A DNA stretch of 64,000 nucleotides. It comes from a virus. The position numbers were made by a program, and so were the translations under genes. The notes beneath the pieces are model-generated. The model searched no databases and was not told where the DNA came from. It saw nothing but the letters and a program-made list of their open reading frames with translations. This document shows, one piece after another, positions 11,320 through 11,401 of this stretch (the stretch's first letter is position 1; every line of letters begins with the position of its first letter). The DNA is taken from IMG/VR virus record IMGVR_UViG_3300045941_000233, positions 32,001 through 96,000 of that record; one strand, 5' to 3'.

Positions 11320-11326
11320 GACAGCC

Positions 11327-11390
11327 GCCGACATAGGATGATTCGGGCTGTGAAATCGTGGAACCAATTTTTCCGTGCCGGCAAAAACAC
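11327..11390 (+). ncRNA. isolated TIGR-like dual-spacer hairpin unit (unit 0)
   Basis: Stem GCCGACATAGGA/TTCCGTGCCGGC encloses TG-ATTCGGGCTG-TGAAATCG-TGGAACCAAT-TT and is followed by AAAAACAC. Same geometry as the array units. Confidence 0.7.
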
Positions 11391-11401
11391 AGGAGTCTTT
11401 T

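What the first reader, a model, noticed from the sequence alone, without database searches (positions are those of the whole stretch)
11320..11400. An eighth, orphan guide unit sits in the operon's 5' leader
About 7 nt after the -10 box is GCCGACATAGGA-TG-ATTCGGGCTG-TGAAATCG-TGGAACCAAT-TT-TTCCGTGCCGGC-AAAAACAC. It has the same loop motif and 10+10 spacing as the array but is separated from it by a 600-nt gene, and it ends just before the AGGAG RBS. The array is therefore split around a protein gene. Binding or processing of this unit could autoregulate the operon (inference).
Basis: seen in the sequence. Interest (0 to 1): 0.75.

Follow-up and report, generated by a model that had tools for sequence, protein, structure and literature searches.

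The report
Lone TIGR guide unit before partner gene
The hairpin in the operon leader is a genuine but solitary guide-RNA unit of a phage TIGR-TasA system, placed where related phages carry whole upstream guide arrays: directly in front of a conserved, undescribed partner gene.

Summary
At 11327-11382, 7 nt after a strong promoter and 8 nt before the AGGAG site, lies a hairpin. It encloses 12 nt, the exact array loop TGAAATCG, then 13 nt.

They also miss true array units, so the test lacks power.

Comparative genomics decides the case:
- The 199-aa gene between this unit and the array belongs to a conserved family (hhalign 97.8%).
- That family sits directly upstream of tasA in 79 of 109 related loci.
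- In 16 of 35 loci with the same loop motif, guide units end just before that gene's ribosome-binding site. The loop lies 30-102 nt before the start, and 51 nt here.

U0 is therefore the one-unit version of a recurrent upstream subarray. The split array is a family trait.

Autoregulation has no support: no spacer pair matches the operon's own promoter, and no RNA data exist. This is a known kind of system (stem-loop TIGR-TasA; Faure 2025, Xu 2026). The partner gene family is not in the TIGR-Tas papers I could search.

The scan has noted TIGR-Tas loci on other DNA before, including a partner gene inside an array (e1-5984329).

The parts
11292..11319 (+). Sigma-70-like promoter: TTGACG, 16 nt, TACAAT. 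A 12-bp palindrome GTACGATCGTAC (11305-11316) overlaps the -10 box. The predicted start is about 11325-11327, at the base of U0.
   Evidence: scores it 10 of 12. A near-twin promoter on the minus strand at 7685-7658 shares TTGTACGAT..TACAATG.CAG. The start site is inferred, not mapped.
11327..11382 (+). U0, a solitary stem-loop TIGR unit. Arms 11327-11338 and 11372-11382; spacer A 11342-11350 (TTCGGGCTG); loop TGAAATCG 11351-11358; spacer B 11360-11368 (GGAACCAAT).
   Evidence: Sequence, fold. Flank-stem energy is in the range of the array units. Its position matches upstream units of related loci. Covariance models see only the interior.
11391..12001 (+). AGGAG site (11391-11395) and the 199-aa partner gene (ATG 11402, TAG 11999-12001). 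All-alpha, basic C-terminus, function unknown.
   Evidence: hhalign against 12 partner proteins of related loci gives probability 97.8%, E 6.6e-13. The gene lies upstream of tasA in 79 of 109 loci. The family has 977 clusters at E<=1e-3. No Pfam or PHROG match. Fold searches gave no clear match.
12010..12060 (+). U1, a degenerate unit or hairpin 8 nt after the partner gene's stop. It has a two-part stem like U0's (the 5' arms are 10 of 12 identical), a shortened interior (25 nt) and the loop variant TGCAACCG.
   Evidence: It scores only as a bare hairpin (8.7 bits).
12070..12423 (+). Array units U2-U7, with loop motifs at 12094, 12156, 12215, 12275, 12335 and 12395. The stems differ in sequence but stay paired.
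   Evidence: Covariation in U3-U7: 95.6% of cells paired, 4 of 9 pairs changed on both sides, and 0 of 500 shuffles reach the score.
12214..13230 (+). tasA (nuclease-free Nop/IS110-C-terminal-like protein). The frame is open from ATG 12214 in the U4 loop. The 60-nt unit period keeps the frame, so U4-U7 lie inside the ORF. Conserved protein sequence begins near 12433.
   Evidence: The PDB hit is 9MTY, the TasR ribonucleoprotein structure, at E 3.5e-5. There are 94 homologues. The conserved N-terminal coiled-coil segment maps upstream of ATG 12493.

Best explanation
U0 is a true stem-loop TIGR unit by descent. It is the single-unit counterpart of the upstream subarray that many related TasA loci carry directly in front of a conserved partner gene.

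Proposed mechanism:
- The operon is read from the promoter at 11292-11319 as one transcript: U0, partner gene, U1-U7 overlapping the 5' end of tasA, then tasA.
- U0 forms the very 5' end of that transcript.
- Like the other units, it is cut out of the precursor and loaded on a TasA dimer.
- There its two 9-10-nt spacers guide binding to the two strands of a DNA target that is still unknown. TasA proteins have been shown to act as RNA-guided repressors.

Shown here: the anatomy, the conserved position and the conserved gene order.

Inferred: co-transcription, processing, loading and guide activity.
For: - Exact loop motif and array-like geometry (12 nt, 8 nt, 13 nt) inside a 10-pair stem. The closing pair is changed on both sides relative to the array.
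- Motif plus stem is expected about 0.003 times per kb per strand.
- Related loci share the loop TGAAAYCG and the unit plan: stem, CGA, N9, TG, AAAC, CGA, N9, TG, stem.
- 16 of 35 comparable loci have a unit whose loop lies 30-102 nt before the partner gene's start, against about 0.2 loci expected by chance. The window's distance is 51 nt; L004, L009, L011, L013 and L023 give 43-49 nt.
- The partner gene is homologous across loci and is present upstream of tasA in 72% of them.
- There is a strong promoter 7 nt upstream. No terminator-like site occurs on the + strand before 13367.
- Published work shows that stem-loop units upstream, downstream and inside tas are expressed and processed, and that TasA represses transcription (Xu 2026; Faure 2025).
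Against: - Covariance models do not recognise U0 as a whole. R1 gives 3.9 bits. R2 gives 9.0 bits, about rank 46 window-wide and E 0.015 only when the leader alone is searched.
- The stem has a mismatch and a bulge, and the fold is not more stable than shuffles.
- The loop's box C reads CGT, not CGA. The 3' edge reads TT, not TG. The window's own units also deviate at these positions.
- It is a single copy, whereas nearly all relatives have 2-9 units there.
- No close relative carries an orthologous U0, so selection on it cannot be measured.
- There are no expression data.
Confidence: 0.6

Rival explanations
1. Decaying relic. U0 descends from an upstream subarray but no longer yields a working guide. 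It survives only because it lies in the 75 nt between promoter and ribosome-binding site.
For: - Imperfect stem, with a fold z-score of 0.03.
- Non-consensus boxes (CGT and TT).
- Its neighbour U1 is clearly degenerate and shares its two-part stem.
- Only the window and L015 have a single upstream unit, where others have 2-9.
- Low covariance-model scores.
Against: - The loop motif is exact and both interiors keep full spacer length, unlike U1.
- The closing pair changed on both sides and still pairs.
- Array units U5 and U6 also lack the box C adenine, and U4 has a stem mismatch.
Confidence: 0.2
2. Cis-regulatory leader. TasA binds the U0 hairpin in the nascent mRNA. By blocking the adjacent ribosome-binding site, or by directing cleavage, it sets the level of the partner protein and perhaps of the whole operon. 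This could coexist with guide function.
For: - The 3' arm ends 8 nt before AGGAG.
- The same tight unit-to-ribosome-site junction recurs in L004, L009, L011, L013, L023, L010 and L001.
- U0 would be the 5' end of the transcript.
Against: - It is untested.
- The hairpin itself leaves AGGAG unpaired.
- Relatives have whole arrays at this position, not a dedicated single element.
- No spacer pair of any unit matches the operon's own promoter or leader, so DNA-level self-repression is not indicated.
- A 12-bp palindrome over the -10 box suggests a protein operator instead.
- Tight junctions may only reflect compact phage genomes.
Confidence: 0.15
3. Chance resemblance. An unrelated GC-rich hairpin happens to hold the 8-mer.
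For: - The 8-mer occurs 12 times elsewhere in the contig.
- Stems this stable occur at 4.4% of random positions.
- Covariance-model scores are at noise level window-wide.
Against: - Joint expectation is about 0.003 per kb per strand.
- The strand, spacing on both sides and the GGCAAA-type tail are all correct.
- The position is shared with 15 other loci.
Confidence: 0.03

Closest known systems
Stem-loop TIGR-TasA systems (PlTasA, BlTasA, Minisyncoccota TasA; Faure et al. 2025, PMC12045711; Xu et al. 2026, bioRxiv 10.64898/2026.09.09.750476; Guan et al. 2026, bioRxiv 10.64898/2026.08.11.744272)
   Same: - A nuclease-free Nop-domain protein.
- Hairpin units with two short spacers around a conserved loop.
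- Stems that vary in sequence but stay paired.
- Units upstream of, downstream of and inside the tas reading frame, and subarrays separated by several hundred nt.
   Different: - Here one unit stands alone at the transcript's 5' end.
- It is separated from the array by a conserved non-tas gene that those papers do not describe. Faure 2025 states that TasA lacks clear associations with other proteins.
- The edge boxes of this array are shifted by one nt (C-a-GA and T-y-G) relative to the family consensus.
tasParB-tasA operons (Faure et al. [quoted passage not shown]
   Same: - A second gene is operonic with tasA.
- TIGR arrays lie upstream, downstream and between the two genes.
   Different: - Those arrays are dual-repeat and the partner is ParB-like.
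- The partner here has no ParB match in Pfam for any of 13 members and no ParB among the fold-search rows shown.
Self-repression of CRISPR-Cas9 operons by a long-form tracrRNA (recalled from memory, not checked here)
   Same: A guide-like RNA encoded at the head of the operon could feed back on the operon's own expression.
   Different: That mechanism needs guide complementarity to the operon's own promoter. No such complementarity exists here.

Membership tests
Stem-loop TIGR unit (tigRNA gene) | Lies beside a tas gene encoding a Nop-domain protein | tested here: met
   The TasA C-terminal domain matches the TasR structure 9MTY at E 3.5e-5. There are 94 homologues. U0 is about 830 nt upstream of the ORF start, in the same predicted operon.
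Stem-loop TIGR unit (tigRNA gene) | Two 8-12-nt spacers separated by a conserved loop carrying box D (UG) and box C (CGA-like) | tested here: met
   TGAAATCG is exact, with 9-10-nt segments on each side. The third base of box C is T instead of A; U5 and U6 also deviate there.
Stem-loop TIGR unit (tigRNA gene) | Box C at the 5' edge and box D at the 3' edge, next to the stem | tested here: inconclusive
   The family consensus CGA...TG is invariant in 49 units. U0 has TGA...TT. The window's own units have AGR or TGA, and TT, TC or CC.
Stem-loop TIGR unit (tigRNA gene) | Palindromic flanking stem enclosing the spacer pair | tested here: met
   10 pairs with one mismatch and one bulge. Flank-stem energy is -12.8 kcal/mol, within the array's range; 4.4% of random sites reach it.
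Stem-loop TIGR unit (tigRNA gene) | Tandem repetition of units | tested here: not met
   U0 is single, and promoter and terL leave no room for more. In relatives the same position holds 2-9 units.
Stem-loop TIGR unit (tigRNA gene) | Recognised by a covariance model of bona fide units | tested here: inconclusive
   R1 gives 3.9 bits. R2 gives 9.0 bits on the interior only. The same models miss U4 and U1 and give U2 14-15 bits.
Stem-loop TIGR unit (tigRNA gene) | Transcribed, processed to a discrete RNA and bound by Tas | not testable with these tools
   No RNA-holding run is listed.
tasParB-type partner gene | Partner protein has a ParB-like domain | tested here: inconclusive
   No ParB family at E<=1 in any of 13 members. 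Fold searches show no clear relative. Very distant similarity cannot be excluded.
Self-targeting autoregulatory guide | Spacer pair complementary to the operon's own promoter or leader | tested here: not met
   The best match of any unit in 11230-11330 has 6 mismatches of 18.

The most novel reading that the evidence does not exclude
The conserved order (guide unit(s) abutting the ribosome-binding site, an undescribed 165-220-aa partner gene, the array, then tasA) is a functional module.

In this reading the partner protein is a second, so far unreported component of this TasA clade, for example the missing tigRNA-processing or effector factor. TasA loading or cleavage at the unit next to its ribosome-binding site would couple partner-protein synthesis to guide maturation.
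Probability: 0.15. Interest if true: 0.75.

Novelty: new member of a known kind. Interest (0 to 1): 0.4.

Why it matters
- For annotation, TIGR units can sit as single copies in what looks like an ordinary 5' leader. Array finders and covariance models miss them.
- For biology, the useful result is the frame around the unit. A widespread, unnamed protein family (977 clusters) is embedded between guide subarrays in most loci of this TasA clade.
- How stem-loop tigRNAs are processed, and what nuclease-free TasA does in phages, are open questions in the published work. This partner gene and the unit at its ribosome-binding site give concrete things to delete and assay.

Tried and rejected
- Rfam: no match in 10500-13500.
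- Tandem Repeats Finder did not see the array.
- A word-based homologue search for the 199-aa protein found only itself. Homology appeared only with a profile of partner genes taken from related loci.
The closest TasA relatives (50-54% identity, P0004-P0011) could therefore not be inspected for an orthologous U0.
- Partner protein function:
  - Pfam and PHROGs gave nothing.
  - Foldseek against PDB gave nothing at E<=0.001.
  - VIA wide gave a best Z of 5.7, which is noise level for helical proteins.
  - The ESM Atlas returned only hypothetical proteins.
- Complex prediction of TasA with the partner protein returned no verdict.
- Sequencing runs: no RNA holder is listed. Contigs from four of the five listed soil-metagenome DNA holders are identical to the window across 11200-13300, so there are no variants to read selection from.
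- Self-target search in the 104-kb contig:
  - Three hits with 2 mismatches for 7 units, against about 0.4 expected.
  - U0's best hit has 2 mismatches and a 2-nt gap. It covers the ribosome-binding site and ATG of an early-cassette gene at contig 30945-30964.
  - The hits use mixed arrangements and are too weak to call targets.
- Sigma-70-like promoters ahead of upstream subarrays were found in 3 of 16 loci, against 3% background. This is suggestive only.
- GenBank phages hold only distant TasA relatives.

Full report
**What is there.** The window is part of a single 104,285-bp contig. It is a soil phage by its neighbours and by earlier notes. I did not verify the terL call on the 686-aa ORF 9222-11282, which has no Pfam match. 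Downstream of that ORF the order is as follows.
- A promoter: TTGACG, 16 nt, TACAAT at 11292-11319, 10 of 12 matches.
- The hairpin in question, U0, at 11327-11382.
- AGGAG at 11391-11395.
- A 199-aa gene at 11402-12001.
- A degenerate hairpin, U1, at 12010-12060.
- Six clear units, U2-U7, at 12070-12423, each with the loop TGAAAYCG.
- A protein whose C-terminal domain matches the TasR structure 9MTY at E 3.5e-5. It has 94 homologues.

The array stems differ in sequence but stay paired. 95.6% of cells are paired, 4 of 9 pairs are changed on both sides, and no shuffle reaches the score. This is a stem-loop TIGR-TasA system, as described by Faure et al. 2025 (PMC12045711) and Xu et al. 2026 (bioRxiv 10.64898/2026.09.09.750476).

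**The observation.**
- U0 has a 10-pair stem with one mismatch and one bulge. It encloses 12 nt, the exact loop TGAAATCG, and 13 nt. This is the same geometry as U2.
- Its innermost pair is A-U where U3 and U5-U7 have C-G, so both sides have changed.
- Its tail GGCAAAAAC resembles the array linker GGCAAAYCC.

**Chance.**
- The 8-mer occurs 12 times elsewhere on both strands of the contig.
- A flank stem as good as U0's (-12.8 kcal/mol; array units -12.6 to -20.3) is found at 4.4% of random positions.
- That gives about 0.003 expected sites per kb per strand.
- The hairpin as a whole is not unusually stable (z 0.03).

- A model from U3-U7 (R1) did not list U0 at E<=10 in the whole window. In the leader alone it gives 3.9 bits on the loop only.
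- A model from 49 units of other loci (R2) gives U0 9.0 bits on the interior only. That is about rank 46 in the window and E 0.015 when only the 119-nt leader is searched.
- The same models give the undoubted unit U2 14-15 bits, do not list U4 in the R2 search (R1, trained on it, scores it 45.6 bits), and see U1 only as a bare hairpin.
- The test is therefore weak here. Taken alone it neither confirms nor refutes the unit, and I report it as evidence against only in that limited sense.

**What settles it: relatives.** Scans with the TasA alignment brought in 183 loci, of which 154 are non-redundant.
- Many share the exact loop TGAAAYCG and the plan: stem, CGA, N9, TG, AAAC, CGA, N9, TG, stem.
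- Between subarrays, directly upstream of tasA, they carry a 165-220-aa ORF.
- The window's 199-aa protein had no word-based homologues. It nevertheless aligns with these ORFs over its length and matches their profile with probability 97.8%, E 6.6e-13.
- A profile search finds this partner gene upstream of tasA, on the same strand, in 79 of 109 loci with enough upstream sequence.
- It finds 977 clusters in the 1.8-billion-protein library.
- Of 35 loci with the partner gene and at least two strict-motif units, 19 have units upstream of it. In 16 the last loop lies 30-102 nt before the partner gene's start.
- Distances are 51 nt in the window; 43-49 nt in L004, L009, L011, L013 and L023; and 33-63 nt in L104, L144, L177, L138, L154 and L112.
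- About 0.2 loci would be expected by chance.
- The junctions all read unit, short linker, ribosome-binding site, ATG.
- A looser descriptor gives 17 of 41 loci, against a background of 0.26 units per kb.

U0 is thus the one-unit version of a recurrent upstream subarray. Only the window and L015 have a single unit there.

**How it most likely works.**
- No terminator-like site lies on the + strand between the promoter and 13367, so one transcript probably carries U0, the partner gene, the array and tasA.
- The predicted start, about 7 nt after the -10 box, coincides with the base of U0's stem. U0 would then need only 3' processing.
- By analogy with the published systems, the unit would be released and loaded on a TasA dimer. 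Units at flexible positions are expressed and processed even in E. coli. Nine base pairs form per spacer on opposite strands. TasA acts as a repressor.
- These steps are inferred, not shown.

I give 0.6 to this reading, 0.2 to a non-functional relic, 0.15 to a cis-regulatory role (not exclusive) and 0.03 to chance.

**Autoregulation.**
- No unit's spacer pair matches the operon's promoter or leader. The best has 6 mismatches of 18.
- The hairpin leaves AGGAG unpaired.
- The -10 box is overlapped by a perfect 12-bp palindrome. A near-twin promoter stands on the minus strand at 7685-7658. This points to a protein operator shared by two promoters.
- The tight unit-to-ribosome-site junction is conserved, so binding of TasA to the last upstream unit could affect partner-gene translation. 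That remains a hypothesis.

**Targets.** I derived the site geometry from the reported 8-nt 3' overhangs: spacer A followed by the reverse complement of spacer B on one strand. I searched both arrangements with 0-2-nt gaps in the contig.
- Seven units gave three hits with 2 mismatches. Forty-two shuffled A/B pairings gave none, and about 0.4 would be expected.
- U0's best hit overlaps the ribosome-binding site and ATG of an early-cassette gene at contig 30945-30964.
- The hits use mixed arrangements and the numbers are small. I do not call them targets.

**Comparison with what is known.**
- Units upstream of, downstream of and inside tas, and subarrays hundreds of nt apart, are published.
- Arrays around and between tasParB and tasA are published for dual-repeat systems.
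- U0 itself is therefore an ordinary member of a known kind.
- What I could not find in the TIGR-Tas papers held here is this partner family. Faure 2025 says TasA lacks clear associations with other proteins apart from tasParB.
- The partner is not ParB-like by Pfam. It has no clear structural relative.
I could not check whether it is the same family.

**Limits.**
- No RNA run is listed.
- Contigs of four soil metagenomes are identical across the locus.
- The complex prediction gave no verdict.

Noticed in passing
window 11402-12001, and L001-L183 upstream of tasA: The 199-aa gene belongs to a large unnamed family. It has 977 clusters at E<=1e-3, is 165-220 aa long and is all-alpha. It lies directly upstream of tasA on the same strand in 79 of 109 related loci, usually between guide subarrays. 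It is not described in the TIGR-Tas papers I could search.
   Followed up: partly
window 12214-12492: The tasA frame is open through units U4-U7. The 60-nt period keeps the frame, and each loop reads (M/L)-K-(S/P), giving four 20-aa repeats. AGGAG at 12199-12203 precedes ATG 12214 inside U4. The conserved N-terminal coiled-coil residues map to 12433-12492, upstream of ATG 12493, so the true start lies inside the array.
   Followed up: partly
window 11327-11338 and 12013-12024: U0 and U1, the two hairpins that flank the partner gene, share a two-part stem: an outer GCCGAC helix, a bulge, and an inner GGA or GGGA helix. Their 5' arms are 10 of 12 identical. They look like paralogues distinct from U2-U7. 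In L004 and L023 the flanking units are not alike.
   Followed up: no
window 11305-11316 and 7658-7685 (minus strand): A perfect 12-bp palindrome GTACGATCGTAC overlaps the -10 box of the operon promoter. A second promoter on the minus strand (TTGACG, 17 nt, TACAAT) shares TTGTACGAT..TACAATG.CAG. This may be a shared protein operator.
   Followed up: partly
window 54802-54850 (minus strand): The sequence CCCAATCGGCAGAGCCGGGA, followed 9 nt later by TGAAACCG, resembles the 5' half of U7 (CCCATCGGCAGAGCCGCGA). It lies inside a + strand ORF (53791-55110). It is unexplained and may be chance.
   Followed up: no
contig 30945-30964 (1,037-1,056 nt upstream of window base 1): This is the best in-genome near-match to U0's spacer pair, with 2 mismatches and a 2-nt gap. 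It covers the GAAAGGGG ribosome-binding site and ATG of a gene in an early cassette, about 85 nt downstream of an AATATTGAC-type promoter.
   Followed up: partly
window 13227-13406: A 59-aa ORF with a CPNC motif overlaps the tasA stop (ATGA), so it may be translationally coupled to tasA. A terminator-like hairpin sits at 13367-13379.
   Followed up: no
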